IMG/VR virus record: IMGVR_UViG_2660238147_000004 | Location: 1-49,037 of that record | DNA length: 49,037 bases | Strand: one strand, 5' to 3' | Source: a virus | Lineage: Duplodnaviria > Heunggongvirae > Uroviricota > Caudoviricetes | Shown: piece by piece, positions 24,136 to 36,337 of the stretch | Layout: every line of letters begins with the position of its first letter | How positions within the stretch are numbered: the stretch's first letter is position 1 | Program-made: the position numbers and the translations under genes | Notes under the pieces: model-generated | Told to the model about the DNA's origin: nothing | Database searches by the model: none | The model's input: the letters and a program-made list of their open reading frames with translations, nothing else

Positions 24136-27100
24136 TCAGGCACTGCATAATCCTCCGTCCCGACGTGATGACTGCATAATTGACACAACCCTGCTGTCGA
24201 TCAGATCCACCAGTCCCCTGGCTGAGCGCGCATCTATCTCGCCATTGCTCCCTTGATTCTGAATGCTGATGTGATACACGGGAGAATAAACAAATCCACC
24301 GCCACCATTCACATTTCCAATGGCCCTGACCCCAAGAGAGCCGTCCGCTGCCCGTGTCAGTGGCATGATTGCTTCAGGCCCGGCCTCGCCCATCAGCCCG
24401 GCACCTTTCGCAAAAGCAAAATACGTCGGGGTATCCACAATGGTGTTACTGTAAGCACTCAGATTTGCCGATGTATAAACACCACCTTTTGCGTTTGCCA
24501 CTGCACCGGAAAGCCAGTCGCCGACTGTACCAAGCCATCCTCCGGCACCGGACATGCTTTTGGAAAGTGACTTCAGCCCGTTAACGATGGCAGCGTTCAT
24601 CAGAATTTTTGAAACTTCCTGGAGAATTGAACTCCCCCAGTTTCTCCAGTCCACAACATTTCCGGCCAGTGCATCGGAAATATTTGATACCAGCCCGTCC
24701 ATAGTGGAAACGACAGCATCTGCCGCCTGCGAAGCATAATCGGTGGCACTGTCTGCCCAGTTCGTCAGTCCCTCCTGGAGTCCGGCATTCCAGTTACTGC
24801 GTAAAGCATCAGCCTTTGCATAATAATCCTGCTGATCGCTGAGACGCTCTTCCAGATATTTTTCATTCAGAGATTTTTCCTGTTTCCACAGGGCTTCTTC
24901 AATTTCTCCGGCCTGATACTGTCTCAGTAGCTCGTTATTTTTCTGCTCAAACTCCTGCCGGATGCTCCACATTTCCTGAAGTCGTTCACGCATCCGTGAG
25001 CCTTCACCATATCCCAGTAACTGAGCCTCATTTGATGCTCTGACACTGGCATTACTGTCCGCCAGACTGCTCTCATACGCAGCAAGCTGCTCACGAATCT
25101 TTTTCTGGTCGATGAGTGCTGCATTCTGCAAAAGCGTTTTTTTCTGCGCTTCTGACAGGGTTGATAATTCGCCCTGGCTGACCTGATATTTCATCTTAGC
25201 CAGTTCAGTATTCTGCCCTGCCAGTGCTATTTGCTCTTTTTGCTGTTTAATCAGTTGCTTATAAGTATCTTCTATTTTTTCCGCTTCGGTCTTTTTATGC
25301 GCTTTGGGTTTATTTGCCTGGTTATTTCGCCATGCATCCAGTGAGTTATTTATATAATTCAGTCTTGCTGTCTGATACGCCTCTCCCACAAAGCCGAGAT
25401 CATCCGCAGCATAACCCAGGCGGGCACGCTCACGAGCTTCCCCCTTCAGGCGGGACAGAGCCAGTTCGCGCTCGCTGTTATTCAGTGCGGTCTGCTGTTT
25501 ATCATCCAGGGTTGCCTGTGGTAGCCGTAACGGTACATTCACCAGCCCCTGTCGCTGCTGAAGTAATTCATTACCGAGCCCGAGAAGGCGATTAAACTCG
25601 GTATGCTGCCCATTCATGATCAACAGGGACTGATACGCTTTGTTTTGTTCCGCTGCCTGTTGACGGATCAACGCCACCCGTCGCTCCTCCAGCCCGGCAA
25701 GCACATCCTGAATGGATTGCGCTTTGCCCTGCATTTGAGTGAGGCGAGACTGTTCAACTGCCAGTTGATTTGTTGCTTCTGCAAGCCCTTCTGTGACAGT
25801 TTTTACCGACGTCATGTGGTTAATCATAAAACCGTTATCGGTTGTCCAGCCCGGGTTTGCCAGCACATACTGATAGCCAGCAATTTTTTCCTGTAAGGAT
25901 TTAATCTTACTTTTCTGCTCGTCAATTAACCTGTTTTGCTCCTTCAGTGCCTGTCGCGTCTTTTCCTCATTATCTGACGCTTCAGGAAGCGACATTGCCG
26001 ACGTTTTCTGGCGAATTTCGTCGATTGTTGCGGCATACTGTCGTGCAGATTCTCTGGCCTGCTCCTGATTCTGATACATCGTGTACCAGGCCGCAGCCCC
26101 CAGCATGACGAGTCCCGGCACACCACCAACCAGCCCCAGCGCGCCACTTAATAAACGACTCCCCACTGACGTAACATTATTCAGCGTTGTCTGTGCCGCT
26201 GTTCTGGCCGCAATATTACGGGTAAGTGACACCTGGGCAGCTGTCAGCTTCGCTTCTGCTGCGGCCTGCCTTTCGGTACCGCGAGCAGCAACAACCGCCT
26301 GTTGCGCACGATAAACCGCCGCACGCGCCCTGGCGGTTGCTATCTGTGTCCCCCGAAGTTGCACTTCAGCAAGAGCCACTTCGTTTCTGGCTGCAGTAAT
26401 TAATCCGGCAGTTGCAGATCCAGCAGACGACGCCATATTGCCAAAATATCGGGCTACCCCGACGGCAACCAGAGCACCAGCAGCGGTTGCCACGGTGTCA
26501 ATATTGCCTGCAATACCATTCAGCACACCGGAGAGCGTCTTCGTCACTCCGCTTGCCTCGTTCGCACCACCAACCCAGGCCATAAAGGCGTTTTCAACTT
26601 TGGTTGCAGAGGATGAAACCGTATCAGGCATTGCTGCATATTCATCACGCAACGCCCCAAGCTGACTAATCAGTGCAGGAACAACCTTATCGGCGGTCAG
26701 TTTTCCGTTATCCGCCATGGCCTTCAGATCCTTACGGGCAACCCCCATTCCCGCAGCCAGCGCACGAATAACACGATCGCCGTTCTCATTCACCGAGTTA
26801 AACTCTTCACCGCGCAGCACTCCCTGCGCCAGTGCCTGACTGAACTGCGTGATCACCGAACTGGCTTCTGCTGTACTGGCACCGGATAATTTCAGGCCCG
26901 TGGAGATCGCCTCGGTGACTTTCAGTACCTCCTCAGAACTGTAACCATACTCCCGCATGGAAGCTGCAGAACGGGCAAAAAGGCTGGCGTTATCAGAAAA
27001 CGCCGTCCCCGTTCTCTGGCTGATCGCCATTAATTCACGCTGTGATGACTGAAAATCATCACTGGACTGTGAGGCCTGCTTCAGACGGGCATTTACTGAA

Positions 27101-28826: not shown

Positions 28827-28853
28827 AAAATAAAAAACCCGCCAGCGGCGGGT
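28827..28853 (-). terminator. rho-independent terminator/attenuator upstream of the major tail gene
   Basis: cccgccgctggcggg hairpin followed by UUUUUUAUUUU on the minus-strand transcript. Confidence 0.55.
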
Positions 28854-28873
28854 GGGTAAAATCATTAACGACC

Positions 28874-29218
28874 TCAGGCTATTACCTGAAATTCAAGCGT
28901 GGCTCTGCTCAGACGGGAGTCAGGATCATACCCCTGCGTTTTAGAAATAACGGAGGGTGCCAGTTTCCTTACTGCATCAAGCGCCTGCTCACGAATATCA
29001 TCTGCGTCATCAGGTACTGTCGCCCAGACATCGATCTGCACGGTAATTCTGGATTCAGCCTGCCCATCAAGCACATCAGATGCCGTGTCAGACACCACAG
29101 AAAACACCAGCCACGGCGGAGATACCGCAGGCTTTCCCTCCGTCAGCGGGACCACATAAGGATAAACCTGTCCTCCGGCCAGCTGAGACAACAGGGAATA
29201 CAGTGTGCCCTCCCTCAT
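28874..29218 (-). CDS. tail terminator / tail completion protein (114 aa)
   Basis: Small ORF in the conserved position between head-tail joining genes and the major tail gene. Confidence 0.6.
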   Translation of the reverse strand: MREGTLYSLLSQLAGGQVYPYVVPLTEGKPAVSPPWLVFSVVSDTASDVLDGQAESRITVQIDVWATVPDDADDIREQALDAVRKLAPSVISKTQGYDPDSRLSRATLEFQVIA

Positions 29219-30401: not shown

Positions 30402-31619
30402 TTATTTGCCAGTGAGCGCCTTGATGGCTGCCACATCTTCCAGCACACAGTCAAAACGATGGAAAGCCAGAAATGCCACCTGATCAAACTCAGCATAACG
30501 CTCAACCAGACGTTTCAGTTCCATATAAGTAACGCGGCGAATGATAAAGCGGTTGAAATCCCCCAGGAAAATGAATTTTTTTCCGGTACCAATCCCGTCA
30601 ATAGCCTGATCAATAACATAAGGGATCCCCAGCACAGTAGCCGGCGTACCGCCTGCAATATCCGGCAGCCATAACGGGCGTTTCTGCCCATCCTCCATCT
30701 CTTCAATAGTCTGCAATGTGGCATCATTGAATGCCCAGCGGTATTTCGGCCCACCACGATATGCCGGATCAATGGCATGTTTCAGGGCATTCATTTCTTT
30801 CCAGGTGAAAGCGGCAGAGGCTGCAGTCTGGATGGTTCCCGTCACCGACGCTGCCAGCCCTTTTGGCTGTAACGGTGATCCCGTTCCGGTCCCCTGAACC
30901 AGATATTTTGCCTCTCCACGACCAATACGCTGGGCAATACGGTTTGCCAGATAAGATTCAATATCCACCCCACTGTCCTGGAGCAGCTCATTGGACACAC
31001 GAATTATTTTTGATGACAGCTTTTTAGCCCCCAGAATAGCGGTCCCGAACGTCACATCCTGTTCCGTTGCGGCTGTATTTTCCGCCAGCAGTTCGCCCTC
31101 TTCAGTCGTGCCATCAGACGTTGACCAGGTGATATCCTGCCCGGTTGATGTGGTCAGAAGTTGCGCCACACTGGCAATCCCGCCATAAGCCTTCATGGTG
31201 TCAATGATTTTGTTACGCATCTGCGTGGGCACCGTATATCCGCCCTGAGAATCCGTTGTTACACTCTGAGCCCGCAGTTCACGCATCAGATTACGCTCTT
31301 CAGCATTCAGTTCTGCAAATCCGGCACGCAGAAAACGGTTAAATGCCGCAGCGCGCTTCTCTTCCACCGCCTTTTTCCCGTTCTCCGCCTCATTATTCTG
31401 GCGCTCTTCCGGCCCGGACTCATCCACATATGCCTGATCCTGACGGCGCAACTCTTCTTCACGGGCGATTTGCTCATCCAGCGCATCCAGCTCAGCTTTC
31501 GCCCTGTTCCACTCTGCCCGTTGCTCATCAGTCCATGCGTTATCACCAATTTTTTCATGCAGTGCACGCATATCCTTTGCAATGGTGTTTCGTTTTTGCT
31601 TCATCTCATGAAGTTTCAT
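30402..31619 (-). CDS. major capsid protein (HK97 fold, 405 aa)
   Basis: Follows the prohead protease; coiled N-terminal delta-like region then capsid domain. Confidence 0.85.
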   Translation of the reverse strand: MKLHEMKQKRNTIAKDMRALHEKIGDNAWTDEQRAEWNRAKAELDALDEQIAREEELRRQDQAYVDESGPEERQNNEAENGKKAVEEKRAAAFNRFLRAGFAELNAEERNLMRELRAQSVTTDSQGGYTVPTQMRNKIIDTMKAYGGIASVAQLLTTSTGQDITWSTSDGTTEEGELLAENTAATEQDVTFGTAILGAKKLSSKIIRVSNELLQDSGVDIESYLANRIAQRIGRGEAKYLVQGTGTGSPLQPKGLAASVTGTIQTAASAAFTWKEMNALKHAIDPAYRGGPKYRWAFNDATLQTIEEMEDGQKRPLWLPDIAGGTPATVLGIPYVIDQAIDGIGTGKKFIFLGDFNRFIIRRVTYMELKRLVERYAEFDQVAFLAFHRFDCVLEDVAAIKALTGK

Positions 31620-31633
31620 CGTCAGTAGTATCC

Positions 31634-32233
31634 TTATGCATTAAGAAGGGTCAAAAGACGCTCACGCGCCATTCGTTCGTTAACAGCTTTCTTCAGCGCA
31701 CCACTCGCCCGCGCTTCCTGCCAGGCTTTCATTGAGCGGACACCAGAGTCTGCGTCCTGATAGGCCGGATATGTCACCGGGCTGACGTCATACAGACGAG
31801 AAATGCGCGTGATTTCCCGGATAACAATCCCTTCGTCGTCTTCATACCAGCTCTCTCCGTCACGGGCGACACGAAACGCGAACGAGGACTGATTAATGTC
31901 ACCACGCAACATTGGAGACAGCACCAGGTCACAAATAGTCGGAGTATCCGGTGCAACAATGTCATAACGTAAACCGCGTTCATCCACCGACAATGACAAC
32001 GTGCCGGCAGAACTTCGTCCGAGAATGAAATTAGGATCATGATTAAACAAGCCACGTACATCATCATTCAGTACATCATCAAAAGCCCCCGGCTTGATGA
32101 TTTCACGAAATCCCCACAGAGGTTCTGAACGACTGTTAAATACCGAGCCATACCCCAGAATGTGGGTCGGGGCATTATCATATTGTTCCGCCCGCACCTC
32201 CCCGCTGTAACAGCGCGTTTCACGGTCATTCAT
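31634..32233 (-). CDS. prohead protease (HK97 family)
   Basis: Position between portal and capsid; ...GYGSVFN...FNHD... motif. Confidence 0.85.
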   Translation of the reverse strand: MNDRETRCYSGEVRAEQYDNAPTHILGYGSVFNSRSEPLWGFREIIKPGAFDDVLNDDVRGLFNHDPNFILGRSSAGTLSLSVDERGLRYDIVAPDTPTICDLVLSPMLRGDINQSSFAFRVARDGESWYEDDEGIVIREITRISRLYDVSPVTYPAYQDADSGVRSMKAWQEARASGALKKAVNERMARERLLTLLNA

Positions 32234-33452
32234 CGTTCTTTTCCTCTTTGCCTTTCGTATCTTTAAAGTTATTCAACGGATTTGCTGCATTTACGCTGAC
32301 CAGCATTTCATCCAGACCGTCAACCGGGTTCATATCCTCAAATGCCCTGGCTTCATTCCGACTCATCCAGCCATCTGTAATGGCAAAGTGATAGAACTGC
32401 GCACGCTCCTGTGGGGTCCCACGGAGCAACCCCGTGAGGTTGAAACGAACGTAATACCCGGCAGCCCGTTCTGTACGGGTAAACAGGCGACGGTTAAGCT
32501 CCTGCTCCCAGTTCGCAACCCAGGGCATCATCGTGTAGCGAACAAACTGAATCGCCTGCTGCGTAATATTCGAAAATGTGGCTTTTTCCAGGTCATTAAT
32601 CATGTGCGCCGGGACATTAAAAATCCCGGCAATCATCGACCGGTTCAGCTTGGTCATATCAATGATCTGAGCATCCACCGGAGAAACTGTCAGAGCGCGG
32701 TAATCCAGTTGCGCAGGCAGCAACATGGTTTTATTTTCCTGGCTGCGAAGCGCTGTCACCGCCCGCTGCCACATATTTTTAAGCCTGCCCCAGCTTTGTT
32801 CGTTCAGTTCATTTTTCACAGAAATAATACCGGCAGGACGGGCATTACCGTTAAAAAAGGCGCTGGTATACTGCTGGCCACTCATTCCCATACCAATGGT
32901 TTCAGCATGCTGCATGATCGGGCTCAGTCCCATTTTCTGATTGTTTCCCAGCGCCCTGATATGGATCATGTCGTCCGGACTTACCGCAAATGCACCCTCT
33001 TCGTTATACACCCCGTAAGTATGACGCCCACCGGTGTTAAGTAACGTGGTTTCCCATGGCATACAGCATTCAAGGCTGGTAACCTCTCCACGACGATTAC
33101 GTTTTACCCACGTATAACCATTGCCCCACCCCAGCACATGACGCTGCTTCAGTTCCCGCCACTTATAGCTGGTCTGCCAGGCATTAGGTTCATCATGAAC
33201 GAGCCAGAACAACGGATGATCGCGTGCCGGCTGAACATGCTCATTCGTTTTTCGCATCACATGCAGGGGCATCTGAGCCACACTGGATGAAATAACATAA
33301 ATACAGGCATAGACAGCAGCCAGCTTCATGGATGTTTCCGGACTGACATACACATCCCGGGCAAAAATATTATCCGTCTCAGCGGCCTCTCCGGTTACCG
33401 GAACCGAGGGATTTTCCAGAGGCTCACTGCGAAACAGAGCATCAAGAAGCAT
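32226..33452 (-). CDS. portal protein (HK97 family, 408 aa)
   Basis: Size and position downstream of the terminase large subunit. Confidence 0.85.
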   Translation of the reverse strand: MLLDALFRSEPLENPSVPVTGEAAETDNIFARDVYVSPETSMKLAAVYACIYVISSSVAQMPLHVMRKTNEHVQPARDHPLFWLVHDEPNAWQTSYKWRELKQRHVLGWGNGYTWVKRNRRGEVTSLECCMPWETTLLNTGGRHTYGVYNEEGAFAVSPDDMIHIRALGNNQKMGLSPIMQHAETIGMGMSGQQYTSAFFNGNARPAGIISVKNELNEQSWGRLKNMWQRAVTALRSQENKTMLLPAQLDYRALTVSPVDAQIIDMTKLNRSMIAGIFNVPAHMINDLEKATFSNITQQAIQFVRYTMMPWVANWEQELNRRLFTRTERAAGYYVRFNLTGLLRGTPQERAQFYHFAITDGWMSRNEARAFEDMNPVDGLDEMLVSVNAANPLNNFKDTKGKEEKNDE

Positions 33453-33582
33453 GTTTTCTCCTCATGGACACCACCAGTGCATAAAGCAGCAACAAACAGC
33501 CCGACAGCATCAGAGACGCTGGCAGACCTGCATACAGATAAACGCCAGCAGTGAGCAAACCGAAACCGATCAGCCCGGTCAT
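33442..33582 (-). CDS. possible small hydrophobic protein (46 aa) between terminase and portal
   Basis: ATG...TGA ORF MTGLIGFGLLTAGVYLYAGLPASLMLSGCLLLLYALVVSMRRKHAS, not in the supplied track (under 60 aa); overlaps the portal start. Confidence 0.3.
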   Translation of the reverse strand: MTGLIGFGLLTAGVYLYAGLPASLMLSGCLLLLYALVVSMRRKHAS

Positions 33583-33599
33583 ATCAGTAATAAGCTGTT

Positions 33600-35357
33600 T
33601 CACAGAATTAACAGGTCCTCATCAGGATCAAGCGTGGACAGAAAGTCATTCACGCCCCCTCCATTTACCAGAAAGCGGCTCATGGCTGTAAAAAGCGCAA
33701 CAGGGCCGTCGATTTTGGCTTCCGGCGTGGATTTATTCGGGAAGATGTTGTCGTTTTTGTCCGGTTTTACAGTAACGTTAGACATCATCCAGTTCATGAC
33801 CGGATGATTGCTGTGATGGAAACGCCCGGCATAAACCAGTGATTCCGTTTCCTTCATGGCCTCTGACAGATTGCGGACCGTCTGCGGAACCTCCACCAGC
33901 GGTATCCCTTCTTCAGCCAGTGCCAGGCTGAACTGCATTGCGCTCCACGGGTCAAATCCCAGTTCCCTGAGGTTTTCACCGCCAATCCATTCCAGTAAGT
34001 CACTTTTTATCTGAGCATGATCGATAACATCACCATCCGTCAGGATGAGCTTATCCATCTCCGCCCACTTCCGGTAAAGTTCTGCCTGCTGCCGCGAGCA
34101 TCGTTCCAGCCGTCCTTCCGGAAGCCAGAATTTAAAATCAGCATGAACATGTCCGTTATCGGTTCGCCAGAGTTTTGCCGCCGCACAGATATCAATCTTA
34201 TGAGCAAGGTCGACGCCGACCCACATGGGATATGTTTTCAGCTCATGTTGTGGAGCAATGTATTCGCACTTCTCCCACTTAATCATATCCATCCAGGCAG
34301 ATTCGGCAGTGACCCACACATTCATGTGTTTGGTAAAAAAATTCACCCGCGCAGAGACCTGCTCCTTCGCTTTTTTCGCCAGGCGACGCAGATCATCCCA
34401 GCGTTTACAGATGCCCAGGCCAGGATTCGCTTTCTGCCAGACCGTTTCATCAAACGGATCATCTCCCTCATCAAGCGTGTAAATGATCGCAAAGTAAGAG
34501 TCGTCTTTTACAGCGCCCTCCACGTCGCTGTTATAGCCTCGCAATACCTTGATGGCGTAATCACGCTGCTCGTAACAAATCCCTTCCTTGTTAAAGCCAG
34601 CCGTGGTGATACCAAATAACAGGGACTGCAGACGGGCACCGGTTGCCGTTTCCAGAACGTCCCACACGTCGCGGGTTTTATGTGCATGCAGCTCATCAAT
34701 AATGGCGCAGTGGATGTTCAGACCGTCCAGGTTGTTTGCATCCGAGGAAAGCGGTTCAAATTTTGATGCGCTCTGCTCCTGGTAAATCGCCAGCTTGTTG
34801 AAATCAAACAACCGCCCGAGTGTCGACCGGGCTTTTCTGACCATATTTTTGGCGTCTTCAAACACGATTCTGGCCTGGTCACGCGTGGTTGCGGCTGAAT
34901 ACACCTCAGCTCCGCCTTCACTATCTGCCCCCGTCATATACAGGCCGATACCCGATGACAGTGTTGATTTTGCGTTTTTACGGGCGACTTCGTTGTACGC
35001 CGTCCGGAACCGGCGCACCATCACCGGACGTCCGCTGCCATCGCTGCGCATGACAACTTCCCCGGTTTCTTCATTGACCAGCGGAATGACAAAACCAAAA
35101 ATATTAATGAGGATAAATACATGCCAGTCCATCAACTCAATGGGCTGGCCTGCCAGTGCCCCTTTTACATGAGGCACAAATTTGTAGAAATTCAGGATGT
35201 GCTGCGCACGGGGTTCACTGAAATAAATCCCCCGCTTTTCGCCGTACTTCAGATCATCAAGAAAACGCTGGCAGGCCAGGCGGACAAATTCGCCAGCAAC
35301 AATTTCTCCTGCAACAACACGTTCGGCGTAGCGGATCCCGTCAGCCACTTTTGCCAT
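33600..35357 (-). CDS. terminase large subunit (585 aa)
   Basis: ATPase N-terminal region and nuclease C-terminal region; follows the small subunit. Confidence 0.9.
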   Translation of the reverse strand: MAKVADGIRYAERVVAGEIVAGEFVRLACQRFLDDLKYGEKRGIYFSEPRAQHILNFYKFVPHVKGALAGQPIELMDWHVFILINIFGFVIPLVNEETGEVVMRSDGSGRPVMVRRFRTAYNEVARKNAKSTLSSGIGLYMTGADSEGGAEVYSAATTRDQARIVFEDAKNMVRKARSTLGRLFDFNKLAIYQEQSASKFEPLSSDANNLDGLNIHCAIIDELHAHKTRDVWDVLETATGARLQSLLFGITTAGFNKEGICYEQRDYAIKVLRGYNSDVEGAVKDDSYFAIIYTLDEGDDPFDETVWQKANPGLGICKRWDDLRRLAKKAKEQVSARVNFFTKHMNVWVTAESAWMDMIKWEKCEYIAPQHELKTYPMWVGVDLAHKIDICAAAKLWRTDNGHVHADFKFWLPEGRLERCSRQQAELYRKWAEMDKLILTDGDVIDHAQIKSDLLEWIGGENLRELGFDPWSAMQFSLALAEEGIPLVEVPQTVRNLSEAMKETESLVYAGRFHHSNHPVMNWMMSNVTVKPDKNDNIFPNKSTPEAKIDGPVALFTAMSRFLVNGGGVNDFLSTLDPDEDLLIL

Positions 35358-35839
35358 CAGTCTCTCGCTTTTAAAAGCTCTGCCAGCGGATCAACATTAT
35401 CCGGTCCGGCGGTATTTACTTTTGCCCGGCTTGCCGGTGACATACCAAATTCTGCAAGCATCGCCCGGATCCGCTTCCAGGCATCCGCTTTCATCGCAGC
35501 AGCCGGGTGTGCCTTAATCAGCACATCACCGTTCTGCGTTTCCGAGCGGTAGGTGTACCCCTCAACATCGAGTGTTTCGCAGTGATGCCGGTATTCGGTA
35601 TAGGCTTCCACCAGTAGCTCAAGCGCACGCGCATCAAGCTGAGAAATGATCCCTTCCGCATTCAGCTCTTCCGCCATTCGCCTGAACCAGTACTTCCCCT
35701 GCGCCCCTAAATGTTGCGGAATTTTAGGGAGACCTTTTTCATCCTTTTTAGCGGTTTTTTTGAGGTCTTTAACTGGCCGCTTTGAGGGGTTGCCTCGTAT
35801 CAAATGCAGGCGTGGCGGGATTTTCGGGGGTCCAGACAT
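35357..35839 (-). CDS. terminase small subunit (P27 family)
   Basis: MSGPPKIPPRLHLIRGNP... with basic N-terminus; immediately upstream of the large subunit. Confidence 0.75.
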   Translation of the reverse strand: MSGPPKIPPRLHLIRGNPSKRPVKDLKKTAKKDEKGLPKIPQHLGAQGKYWFRRMAEELNAEGIISQLDARALELLVEAYTEYRHHCETLDVEGYTYRSETQNGDVLIKAHPAAAMKADAWKRIRAMLAEFGMSPASRAKVNTAGPDNVDPLAELLKARD

Positions 35840-35986: not shown

Positions 35987-36337
35987 TCAATTGATGCGTT
36001 CGCGCGCTGTTTTTGCTTTATGACAGGGCCAGCACAGACTCTGCAGGTTACTGTCTGCATCTGTGCCACCATGAGCTTTCGGAATGATGTGGTCCACAGT
36101 TCTGGCTTCAACGGCTCTCCCATTGCGCAGGCAGTTCTGACACAGATGATTATCACGCTTCAGTATGCGCGCACGTATGGCATCCCATTTCGAGCCATAG
36201 CCACGCTGGTGGCGGCTCAGTCCGCGTTGATGCTGTACCCATCCTTCGCCACGATGTTTATCGCAGTAACCAGAACTGTCTGTGGTTGTACCTGCACATC
36301 CACGCTTACGGCAGGCGCGTGGGATTAGTGCTGGCAT
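35987..36337 (-). CDS. HNH endonuclease (116 aa)
   Basis: CxxC...CxxH...H..H zinc/HNH motifs (..CQNCLRNG...VDHIIPKAHGGTD...NLQSLCWPCH..); typical partner of HK97-type terminases. Confidence 0.85.
   Translation of the reverse strand: MPALIPRACRKRGCAGTTTDSSGYCDKHRGEGWVQHQRGLSRHQRGYGSKWDAIRARILKRDNHLCQNCLRNGRAVEARTVDHIIPKAHGGTDADSNLQSLCWPCHKAKTARERIN

What the first reader, a model, noticed from the sequence alone, without database searches (positions are those of the whole stretch)
33442..33582. Unannotated 46-aa hydrophobic ORF between terminase and portal genes
A short ATG-initiated ORF encoding a predicted single-pass membrane peptide sits in the 147-bp gap and overlaps the portal start. 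It may be spurious, or a small membrane protein co-expressed with the packaging genes.
Basis: seen in the sequence. Interest (0 to 1): 0.2.

Follow-up and report, generated by a model that had tools for sequence, protein, structure and literature searches.

The report
Conserved small membrane protein before portal

Summary
The ORF is real and lies on the minus strand. Its true extent is 33442-33603: 53 aa from a GTG that overlaps the TerL stop (GTGA). Its stop overlaps the portal start by 11 nt, and its last codons contain the portal Shine-Dalgarno sequence.

The frame is kept in about 130 related loci from Enterobacterales, Pasteurellaceae, Halomonadaceae, Pseudomonas and Aeromonas. Protein identity falls to about 35%. 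Pooled dN/dS is 0.19, against 0.98 and 2.64 in the shifted frames.

It matches PHROG 7105 over its full length and weakly resembles PHROG 502 ("membrane protein": phiP27 L37, phiKO2 gp3), which occupies the same slot. An exhaustive profile search found 397 clusters at 50% identity. All 8 distant members checked sit between TerL and portal.

AlphaFold2 and the hydrophobicity pattern indicate a two-helix hairpin, not a single pass. RefSeq already annotates it (WP_000811487.1, hypothetical protein).

It is dispensable: HK97 and several close portal relatives lack it. It has no promoter, terminator or GC anomaly of its own, so it is a late-operon gene and not a moron. Function is untested. My best inference, at low confidence, is a portal-linked accessory factor at the inner membrane. 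This is an ordinary finding.

The parts
33442..33603 (-). Small gene: 53 codons plus stop, GTG start. Product: MKQLITDMTGLIGFGLLTAGVYLYAGLPASLMLSGCLLLLYALVVSMRRKHAS (Met is assumed at the GTG).
   Evidence: ORF list. Identical CDS in RefSeq, WP_000811487.1. PHROG 7105 E 9.4e-20 over residues 1-52 of 52. Frame conserved in related loci. dN/dS 0.19.
33600..33603 (-). GTGA overlap: the start codon of the small gene overlaps the TGA stop of TerL. This is a termination-reinitiation coupling site.
   Evidence: Sequence. An ATGA at the same position in most homologues, with no conserved Shine-Dalgarno sequence upstream.
33580..33582 (-). It is probably not the initiation codon.
   Evidence: Residue 8 is V/I/A/L in homologues. 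No Shine-Dalgarno sequence lies upstream.
33529..33600 (-). Helix 1 (residues 2-25). Its hydrophobic core is about residues 8-23. It carries near-invariant D7, L11, G13, G20 and Y22.
   Evidence: AlphaFold2 model. Alignments A2 and A3.
33526..33528 (-). Codon of Gly26, the hairpin turn: invariant in alignment A2 and at least 90% conserved in A3. It lies in the best conserved motif, Y-L-x-[FY]-G-L.
33448..33525 (-). Helix 2 (residues 27-52). Its hydrophobic core is about residues 29-47 (L31, G35, A42), followed by the basic tail RRKH.
33458..33462 (-). Portal Shine-Dalgarno sequence AGGAG, 5 nt before the portal ATG. It is embedded in the Arg-Arg codons of the small gene's tail.
   Evidence: Sequence. 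Purine-rich GGAGG/GGGGG at the same place in homologues.
33442..33452 (-). 11-nt overlap between the 3' end of the small gene and the 5' end of the portal gene.
   Evidence: An overlap of 1-23 nt with the portal start is seen in every homologue examined.
33600..35357 (-). Terminase large subunit (upstream neighbour).
   Evidence: Pfam TerL_ATPase and TerL_nuclease. RefSeq annotation.
33603..33656 (-). Codons for the last 18 residues of TerL. This is the mosaic segment that travels with the small gene and portal, not with the body of TerL.
   Evidence: TerL is 99% identical to that of strain XH992 up to residue 567 and diverges after that, while the portals are only 29% identical.
32226..33452 (-). 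Portal protein (downstream neighbour).
   Evidence: Pfam Phage_portal, E 3e-100. RefSeq annotation.

Best explanation
SHOWN (about 0.97 confidence): window 33442-33603 (minus strand) is a genuine protein-coding gene for a 53-residue protein. It belongs to PHROG 7105, a family of about 50-residue proteins that always lies between TerL and the portal gene in P27-type head modules.

STRONGLY INFERRED (about 0.8): the product is a helical hairpin of two transmembrane helices in the cytoplasmic membrane. The N-terminus and the basic C-terminal tail would face the cytoplasm and the short Y-L-x-F-G-L turn would face the periplasm. The conserved Gly/Ala spacing (G13/G20 and G35/A42) would let the two helices pack against each other.

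INFERRED on expression: it is made only in the late phase, from the Q-antiterminated late transcript. Ribosomes finishing TerL would reinitiate at the overlapping GTGA. Ribosomes finishing the small gene would pass over the portal Shine-Dalgarno sequence and start codon, so that TerL, the small protein and portal form one translationally coupled chain.

INFERRED on function (about 0.35-0.4, my leading guess): it is a non-essential accessory of the portal side of the head module that works at the inner membrane. For example, it could hold or concentrate newly made portal at the membrane so that prohead assembly starts on a portal. Phage T4 does this with the unrelated membrane-associated chaperone gp40 and host YidC.
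For: Coding and conserved:
- The frame, its length (47-60 aa) and both overlaps are kept in about 130 loci whose portals are 48-100% identical to this one. The small protein itself is 35-68% identical.
- Pairwise dN/dS is 0.2-0.4. Pooled over 329 pairs it is 0.19, against 0.98 and 2.64 in the shifted frames.
- There is a full-length PHROG 7105 match.
- An exhaustive profile search found 397 cluster representatives at E <= 1e-3. Of the 150 best listed, nearly all are 45-80 aa stand-alone proteins.

Hairpin: AlphaFold2 gives helices 2-25 and 27-52 at mean pLDDT 75. M1, G13 and G35 are invariant in both alignments; G26 and L31 are invariant in one and at least 90% conserved in the other; G20 and Y22 are at least 90% conserved.

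Late operon and coupling:
- The start overlaps the TerL stop as GTGA or ATGA, no conserved Shine-Dalgarno sequence precedes it, and the portal AGGAG lies inside its last codons.
- No promoter-like or terminator-like site was found on the minus strand.
- GC content equals that of the flanks.
- The gene sits in a lambdoid late operon downstream of Q, holin, lysozyme and Rz.

Portal linkage:
- All 8 distant members sampled lie between TerL and the next gene downstream. That gene is a Phage_portal gene on the 6 contigs long enough to identify it, even though the downstream protease type varies (S78, S49, ClpP) and other genes are inserted elsewhere.
- The 3' overlap with portal is universal, whereas the 5' junction with TerL varies from an overlap to a 198-nt gap.
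- The type of small gene follows the type of portal, while a 99%-identical TerL body recombines with either.
- A second family with the same architecture (PHROG 502: phiP27 L37, phiKO2 gp3) fills the same slot.
- The gene occurs in phages named as both siphoviruses (vB_EcoS) and myoviruses (vB_EcoM), so it follows the head module and not the tail.

Precedent: T4 portal initiator assembly on the inner membrane needs gp40 and involves YidC (PMC9958956, read).
Against: - No experiment bears on function. No paper in the searchable library characterises any member.
- The gene is dispensable. HK97 joins TerL directly to portal, and so do loci with portals 51-57% identical to this one (L131, L137, L139) and most of the loci with about 35% portal identity.
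- Co-inheritance with portal would follow from adjacency alone.
- No fusion of this protein to a portal or TerL was found among the 150 best-scoring hits listed. One apparent fusion, P0130, looks like a frameshift read-through and not a genuine fusion (my reading of the sequence).
- dN/dS is 3-6 times higher than for portal, which fits a loosely constrained membrane peptide.
- Part of the conservation of the basic tail may simply reflect the embedded portal ribosome-binding site.
- There is no sequence or structural similarity to T4 gp40 or to anything solved.
Confidence: 0.4

Rival explanations
1. It is a real membrane hairpin protein whose job has nothing to do with head assembly. It would be a late-phase membrane effector, for example one that tunes holin triggering or lysis timing, blocks DNA entry by other phages into the infected cell, or counters a membrane-associated host defence. 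It would simply ride in the late operon.
For: PHROG files the sister family 502 under 'moron, auxiliary metabolic gene and host takeover'. The size, two transmembrane helices and charged tail loosely recall class II holins and small superinfection-exclusion proteins. The gene is dispensable and patchily distributed, as accessory genes are. Selection is comparatively relaxed.
Against: It has no promoter or terminator of its own and no GC anomaly, so it is not expressed as a moron in the lysogen. The prophage already has a class II holin, a lysozyme and an Rz-type lysis protein. There is no hit in PADLOC or in Pfam holin families. A function independent of portal should let the gene wander, yet every contig long enough to identify the neighbours shows it immediately upstream of portal and overlapping it.
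Confidence: 0.3
2. The ORF matters mainly in cis. It would be a translational coupler (a relay ORF) that passes ribosomes from TerL to the portal start and sets the TerL:portal ratio, with the peptide itself of little importance.
For: The overlaps at both ends are conserved. No Shine-Dalgarno sequence of its own is conserved, and the portal Shine-Dalgarno sequence lies inside its 3' end. Where the ORF is absent, TerL and portal abut or overlap directly, so coupling is the constant feature.
Against: A pure relay needs no particular peptide. Here specific residues are invariant or nearly so (G13, G26, G35, D7, Y22), dN/dS is 0.19, and the two-helix hydrophobic architecture is retained across families down to about 25% identity. 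The local mRNA is not unusually structured (z = -1.75), so unmasking of the portal ribosome-binding site is not evident.
Confidence: 0.1
3. The peptide is packaged with or on the portal and released at infection to help form the DNA conduit across the inner membrane, acting as a pilot or ejection protein.
For: It is adjacent and translationally coupled to portal, which could give comparable copy numbers. It is hydrophobic enough to insert into a target membrane.
Against: I found no record of such a peptide as a virion protein. A 53-residue double-transmembrane peptide would insert into the producer cell's membrane co-translationally. It occurs with both siphovirus-type and myovirus-type phages, whose entry routes differ. 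It is absent from close relatives.
Confidence: 0.07
4. It is a chance ORF in an intergenic spacer and is not translated into a functional product.
For: An open 53-codon frame has a prior of about 8% by chance. Gene callers often over-predict small hydrophobic ORFs.
Against: The frame is conserved over about 130 loci and 397 clusters at 50% identity. dN/dS is 0.19 against about 1 or more in the other frames. The start and stop positions are conserved, and the antisense and alternative frames are mostly closed.
Confidence: 0.01

Closest known systems
PHROG 7105 (unknown function); RefSeq WP_000811487.1 'hypothetical protein'; the unannotated 53-aa ORF of Shigella phage SfV (U82619.2, 2289-2450)
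   Same: The window protein is identical to WP_000811487.1. It gives an end-to-end HMM match to PHROG 7105 at E 9.4e-20. The position is the same, with the same ATGA/GTGA overlap with TerL and the same overlap with portal.
   Different: Nothing: the window gene is a member. No member has an assigned function.
PHROG 502 'membrane protein': phiP27 L37, phiKO2 gp3, ST64B Sb3, and the corresponding genes of SfI/SfII, PY54 and Marinobacter phage AS1
   Same: It occupies the same slot immediately upstream of portal in P27-type modules. It has the same size (59-64 aa) and the same two-helix hairpin with conserved glycines and a basic or charged tail. There is weak profile similarity (hmmscan E 1.3e-6, hhalign probability 71%, E 3.8e-5).
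   Different: No pairwise BLASTP similarity. The turn is P-P-A-G instead of x-F-G-L. It pairs with a portal that is only 29% identical. It starts 11 nt after the TerL stop instead of overlapping it. Homology is plausible but not proven, because compositional bias of transmembrane segments can inflate the scores.
Phage T4 gp40 with the membrane-bound gp20 portal initiator
   Same: A proposed functional analogy only: a phage factor acting at the inner membrane to promote portal-nucleated prohead assembly (PMC9958956).
   Different: There is no sequence or structural relationship. T4 gp40 is not encoded next to the portal in a coupled arrangement of this kind (my own knowledge). The role proposed here is untested, and the gene is dispensable in relatives.
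HK97 gp15 type morons (small inner-membrane superinfection-exclusion proteins embedded in morphogenetic operons; my own knowledge)
   Same: A small inner-membrane protein encoded inside a block of structural genes of a lambdoid phage.
   Different: Morons have their own promoter and terminator, often have deviant GC content, and are expressed from the prophage. None of these features is seen here. This gene is translationally coupled to its neighbours and its position is fixed.
Lambda gpW (head-tail joining protein; the gene between A and B in lambda)
   Same: It lies between the large terminase and portal genes. Some phage records label the PHROG 502 gene 'head-tail joining protein W'.
   Different: gpW is a soluble 68-residue protein with no transmembrane segment (my own knowledge). 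The window protein hits no Pfam family at all. The label is a positional mis-annotation.

Membership tests
PHROG 7105 (small protein between TerL and portal) | Significant full-length match to the family HMM | tested here: met
   E 9.4e-20, residues 1-52 aligned to profile positions 1-52 of 52.
PHROG 7105 (small protein between TerL and portal) | Genomic position between TerL and portal, overlapping the portal start | tested here: met
   Window; about 130 related loci; 8 of 8 distant members lie directly after TerL, with portal confirmed downstream on the 6 contigs long enough to show it.
PHROG 502 'membrane protein' (phiP27 L37 / phiKO2 gp3) | Significant match to the family HMM or profile | tested here: inconclusive
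   hmmscan E 1.3e-6, reciprocal E 0.015, hhalign probability 70.7%, no BLASTP alignment. This is either a remote relative or convergent hydrophobic composition.
PHROG 502 'membrane protein' (phiP27 L37 / phiKO2 gp3) | Two-helix hydrophobic hairpin of about 60 aa immediately upstream of portal | tested here: met
Class II holin | Two transmembrane domains plus a charged C-terminal tail | tested here: inconclusive
   Two helices are predicted, but the tail is only about 6 residues (RRKHAS) and partly dictated by the portal ribosome-binding site.
Class II holin | Match to a holin family model and location in the lysis cassette | tested here: not met
   No Pfam or NCBIfam holin hit. The prophage has a separate class II holin, lysozyme and lysis protein upstream of HNH and TerS.
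Moron / prophage-expressed superinfection exclusion gene | Own promoter and terminator; base composition different from the neighbours | tested here: not met
   No minus-strand promoter-like or terminator-like site in 32900-34100. GC is 0.48-0.52, the same as the flanks. Both ends overlap the neighbouring genes.
Moron / prophage-expressed superinfection exclusion gene | Confers exclusion or another phenotype in the lysogen | not testable with these tools
   Needs expression and plating experiments.
Lambda gpW-like head-tail joining protein | Soluble gpW fold or family match | tested here: not met
   No Pfam hit. The protein is predicted to be a hydrophobic hairpin. The 'W' labels in some records are positional.
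T4 gp40-like portal assembly factor (functional class) | Membrane association | tested here: inconclusive
   Predicted from sequence and the AlphaFold2 model only.
T4 gp40-like portal assembly factor (functional class) | Required for or stimulates portal incorporation; contacts portal | not testable with these tools
   No multimer prediction or experiment was available. No Rosetta-stone fusion appears among the 150 best-scoring hits listed.

The most novel reading that the evidence does not exclude
P27-type head modules, and possibly a wider superfamily joining PHROGs 7105, 502 and 4810, encode a dedicated 50-60 residue inner-membrane hairpin that is made in step with portal. It would tether or nucleate the portal dodecamer at the cytoplasmic membrane, giving scaffold-less HK97-fold phages a membrane-based way to make each prohead start on a portal. 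This would be a simple analogue of the T4 gp40/YidC route, and a way to test how portal incorporation is controlled.
Probability: 0.25. Interest if true: 0.6.

Novelty: already known. Interest (0 to 1): 0.28.

Why it matters
As a sequence feature it is already catalogued: a RefSeq hypothetical protein and PHROG 7105, with sister genes labelled 'membrane protein' in phiP27 and phiKO2. The finding itself is therefore ordinary.

What may be worth a specialist's attention is the pattern. A tiny membrane hairpin is locked by overlapping start and stop codons between TerL and portal in hundreds of diverged head modules, yet it has never been studied. If it acts on the portal, it would bear on the open question of how HK97-like phages, which lack a separate scaffolding protein, place one portal in each capsid. 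If it does not, it is an example of a late-expressed small membrane effector.

There is also a practical annotation point. The start is the GTG/ATG overlapping the TerL stop. SfV lacks the gene call. Some records mislabel the sister family as lambda gpW.

Tried and rejected
- Pfam, NCBIfam and PADLOC scans of the peptide found no meaningful hit.
- A PDB sequence-profile search and a Foldseek search of the AlphaFold2 model against PDB gave only chance-level matches.
- Eight literature searches covered small membrane proteins between terminase and portal, phrog_502, phiKO2 gp3, ST64B sb3 and phiP27 L37. None found a functional study. The pKO2 paper could not be retrieved.
- Papers on actinobacteriophages mention insertions between terminase and portal, but these are unrelated.
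- An RNA fold of the region tested for occlusion of the portal ribosome-binding site. The result (z = -1.75) was not informative.
- I looked for Rosetta-stone fusions to portal or TerL among the 150 best hits. None is genuine: P0130 looks like a frameshift read-through and P0199 like a repetitive spurious hit (my reading).
- The 159-aa plus-strand ORF 33328-33807 was considered as an alternative and rejected. It is antisense to three conserved genes, and the antisense frames are mostly closed in homologues.
- The single-pass topology, the ATG-33582 start, and holin, moron and gpW identities were considered and rejected, as detailed in the membership test.
Full report
**What is there.**
All genes in this part of the window run on the minus strand:
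- HNH endonuclease, 35987-36337
- P27-family small terminase, 35357-35839
- TerL, 33600-35357
- a small ORF
- portal, 32226-33452
- HK97-family prohead protease, 31634-32233
- major capsid protein, 30402-31619

ATG 33582 opens 46 codons that end at TGA 33444-33442. The TerL-portal gap is 147 nt, and the ORF overlaps the portal ATG (33452) by 11 nt. The frame stays open for 7 more codons, up to GTG 33603, which overlaps the TerL stop as GTGA.

**Public annotation.**
The region is 100% identical to E. coli APEC O1 and to several E. coli phages. RefSeq calls the 53-aa GTG-start form WP_000811487.1, 'hypothetical protein'. Phage Evi and the vB_EcoS phages also annotate it. Of 5426 complete E. coli genomes, 630 carry at least 80% of the 451-bp query around the gene.

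**Is it more than chance?**
One open frame of this length is not rare (about 8% a priori), so I tested conservation. Using the portal as an anchor I fetched 80 viral contigs (portal 83-100% identical) and 78 genome loci from different species (portal 33-85% identical).
- Nearly every locus whose portal is at least 48% identical has the same frame open, encoding a 47-60 residue hydrophobic protein. These loci come from Kluyvera, Buttiauxella, Citrobacter, Xenorhabdus, Proteus, Providencia, Morganella, Serratia, Edwardsiella, Mannheimia, Glaesserella, Actinobacillus, Salinicola, Cobetia, Vreelandella, Pseudomonas, Endozoicomonadaceae and Aeromonas.
- Identity to the window protein is only 35-68%, so the frame has survived extensive sequence turnover.
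- In the homologues the start is an ATG at exactly the position of the window's GTG (ATGA with the TerL stop).
- All 95 unique upstream segments are open in one of the two registers that the small ORF uses (72 and 23). The remaining sense frame is open in 8 and the antisense frames in 3-13.
- dN/dS against the window gene is 0.2-0.4 for most comparisons. Pooled over 329 pairs at 80-99.5% nucleotide identity it is 0.19 in frame, against 0.98 and 2.64 in the shifted frames.
- Selection is real but weaker than on the portal (0.03-0.08).

**Family.**
The protein matches PHROG 7105 end to end (E 9.4e-20). It matches PHROG 502 ('membrane protein') and PHROG 4810 more weakly. It has no Pfam, NCBIfam or PADLOC family.
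- A word-indexed profile search found 106 homologues, all labelled hypothetical or 'membrane protein'.
- An exhaustive HMM search of 1.84 billion cluster representatives found 397 at E <= 1e-3. Of the 150 best listed, nearly all are 45-80 aa stand-alone proteins.
- I looked up 8 of the most distant ones. All 8 lie directly after TerL and overlap the next gene. That gene is a Phage_portal gene on the 6 contigs long enough to tell. This holds although the portal length (399-560 aa), the protease type (S78, S49, ClpP/SDH) and other insertions differ.

**The sister family.**
Other E. coli prophages have a TerL that is 99% identical up to residue 567, but a portal only 29% identical. They carry a different 60-aa hydrophobic gene in the same slot. 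That gene is PHROG 502 (E 1.6e-27).
- Members include phiP27 L37, phiKO2 gp3, ST64B Sb3, and the corresponding genes of SfI, SfII, PY54 and Marinobacter phage AS1.
- Profile-profile comparison of the two families gives 71% probability and E 3.8e-5 over 48 columns. This suggests remote homology, but it is not conclusive for transmembrane sequences, and BLASTP finds nothing.
- The recombination joint lies in the last 18 codons of TerL. The TerL tail, the small gene and the portal therefore move together as one unit.

**Structure.**
- Alignments A2 and A3 show M1, G13 and G35 invariant in both. G26 and L31 are invariant in one and at least 90% conserved in the other. G20 and Y22 are at least 90% conserved in both, and D7, L11 and A42 in A2.
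- The best conserved motif is the central G-x-Y-L-x-[FY]-G-L.
- AlphaFold2 with the 55-sequence alignment predicts helices 2-25 and 27-52, broken at G26 (mean pLDDT 74.7).
- Two hydrophobic stretches of about 16-19 residues and a basic C-terminal tail make an N-in/C-in transmembrane hairpin the natural reading. This is an inference from the positive-inside rule. A single pass is not supported.
- No solved structure or sequence resembles it.

**Expression logic.**
- The prophage is lambdoid. Its order is Q antiterminator, four tRNA genes, class II holin, lysozyme, Rz-type lysis protein, HNH, TerS, TerL, small gene, portal, then head and lambda-like tail genes.
- No promoter-like or terminator-like site lies on the minus strand around the small gene, and its GC content equals that of the flanks. 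It is part of the late transcript and not a moron.
- No Shine-Dalgarno sequence is conserved before its start, while the ATGA/GTGA overlap with TerL is conserved. This points to termination-reinitiation.
- The portal AGGAG (33458-33462) lies within the Arg-Arg codons of its tail, and homologues keep purine-rich GGAGG/GGGGG at that spot. Part of the 'R-R-G-K' conservation is therefore nucleotide-level.
- The local RNA fold is unremarkable (z = -1.75).

**Dispensability.**
HK97 itself joins TerL (542-2056) directly to portal (2056-3330). The same holds for Pandoraea L131 (portal 57% identical, gap of 6 nt), L137 and L139 (gap of 30 nt), and most betaproteobacterial loci with about 35% portal identity. 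Ralstonia L153 and Paraburkholderia L157, by contrast, have a 50-aa hairpin gene. The gene is therefore an accessory of P27-type modules and not a core part of the HK97-type head pathway.

**Interpretation.**
- Shown: this is a real, conserved, already catalogued small gene.
- Strongly inferred: the product is an inner-membrane helical hairpin, made late and translationally chained between TerL and portal.
- Function is open. I favour (about 0.4) a portal-side accessory role at the membrane, for three reasons. The position is fixed across very diverged modules. The overlap with portal is universal while the TerL junction varies. The gene travels with head modules whether the tail is siphovirus-type or myovirus-type.
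- T4 provides a precedent for membrane-based portal initiation (gp40/YidC; PMC9958956), but there is no homology to it.
- The main rival (about 0.3) is an assembly-independent late membrane effector.
- A pure relay ORF (about 0.1) is disfavoured by residue-level conservation.
- A virion or ejection role (about 0.07) has no support.
- A spurious ORF is excluded.
- No functional study of any member was found in the searchable literature.

**Verdict.**
The boundaries and topology need correcting. The feature is already known as an uncharacterised family. Interest is low to moderate.

Noticed in passing
window 33603-33656 (-), last 18 codons of TerL; compare L003 894-2651: There is a mosaic joint inside TerL. 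The protein is 99% identical to that of E. coli XH992 up to residue 567 and then diverges, while the downstream portals are only 29% identical. The TerL C-terminal tail therefore swaps together with the small gene and portal, which fits a tail that must match its portal.
   Followed up: partly
L169 (Shigella phage SfV, U82619.2) 2289-2450 and 2392-3666: SfV has an intact 53-aa homologue (ATG overlapping the TerL stop) that the record does not annotate. Its portal is called from an upstream GTG (2392), which adds 16 residues not present in homologous portals, so that start is probably over-extended.
   Followed up: partly
phage records ON470580.1, ON470603.1, ON470584.1, PQ793804.1: The PHROG 502 small membrane gene is labelled 'head-tail joining protein W' in several phage records. 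This looks like a mis-annotation based on its position being like that of lambda W.
   Followed up: no
window 33328-33807 (+): A 159-aa ATG ORF runs antisense across the portal start, the small gene and the TerL end. It is very likely a shadow ORF of the three minus-strand genes, since antisense frames are mostly closed in homologues.
   Followed up: partly
L089, L091-L094 (Symbiopectobacterium purcellii NZ_CP189882.1); L140 (Ca. S. endolongispinus): One S. purcellii chromosome carries five copies of this head module, all with identical small genes. In the related endosymbiont the small gene is truncated (38 aa from TTG), as expected in a degrading prophage.
   Followed up: no
L175 3895-4863: In one distant metagenomic relative, three extra genes (one with a KilA-N domain) are inserted between portal and protease, yet the small gene still sits directly before portal.
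   Followed up: no
L170 (APEC O1 copy of this prophage) 24606-24915 and 28829-28984: In the late region, four tRNA genes (Gly, Thr, Lys, Ile) lie between Q and the holin, and a hokD type I toxin gene lies further upstream.
   Followed up: no
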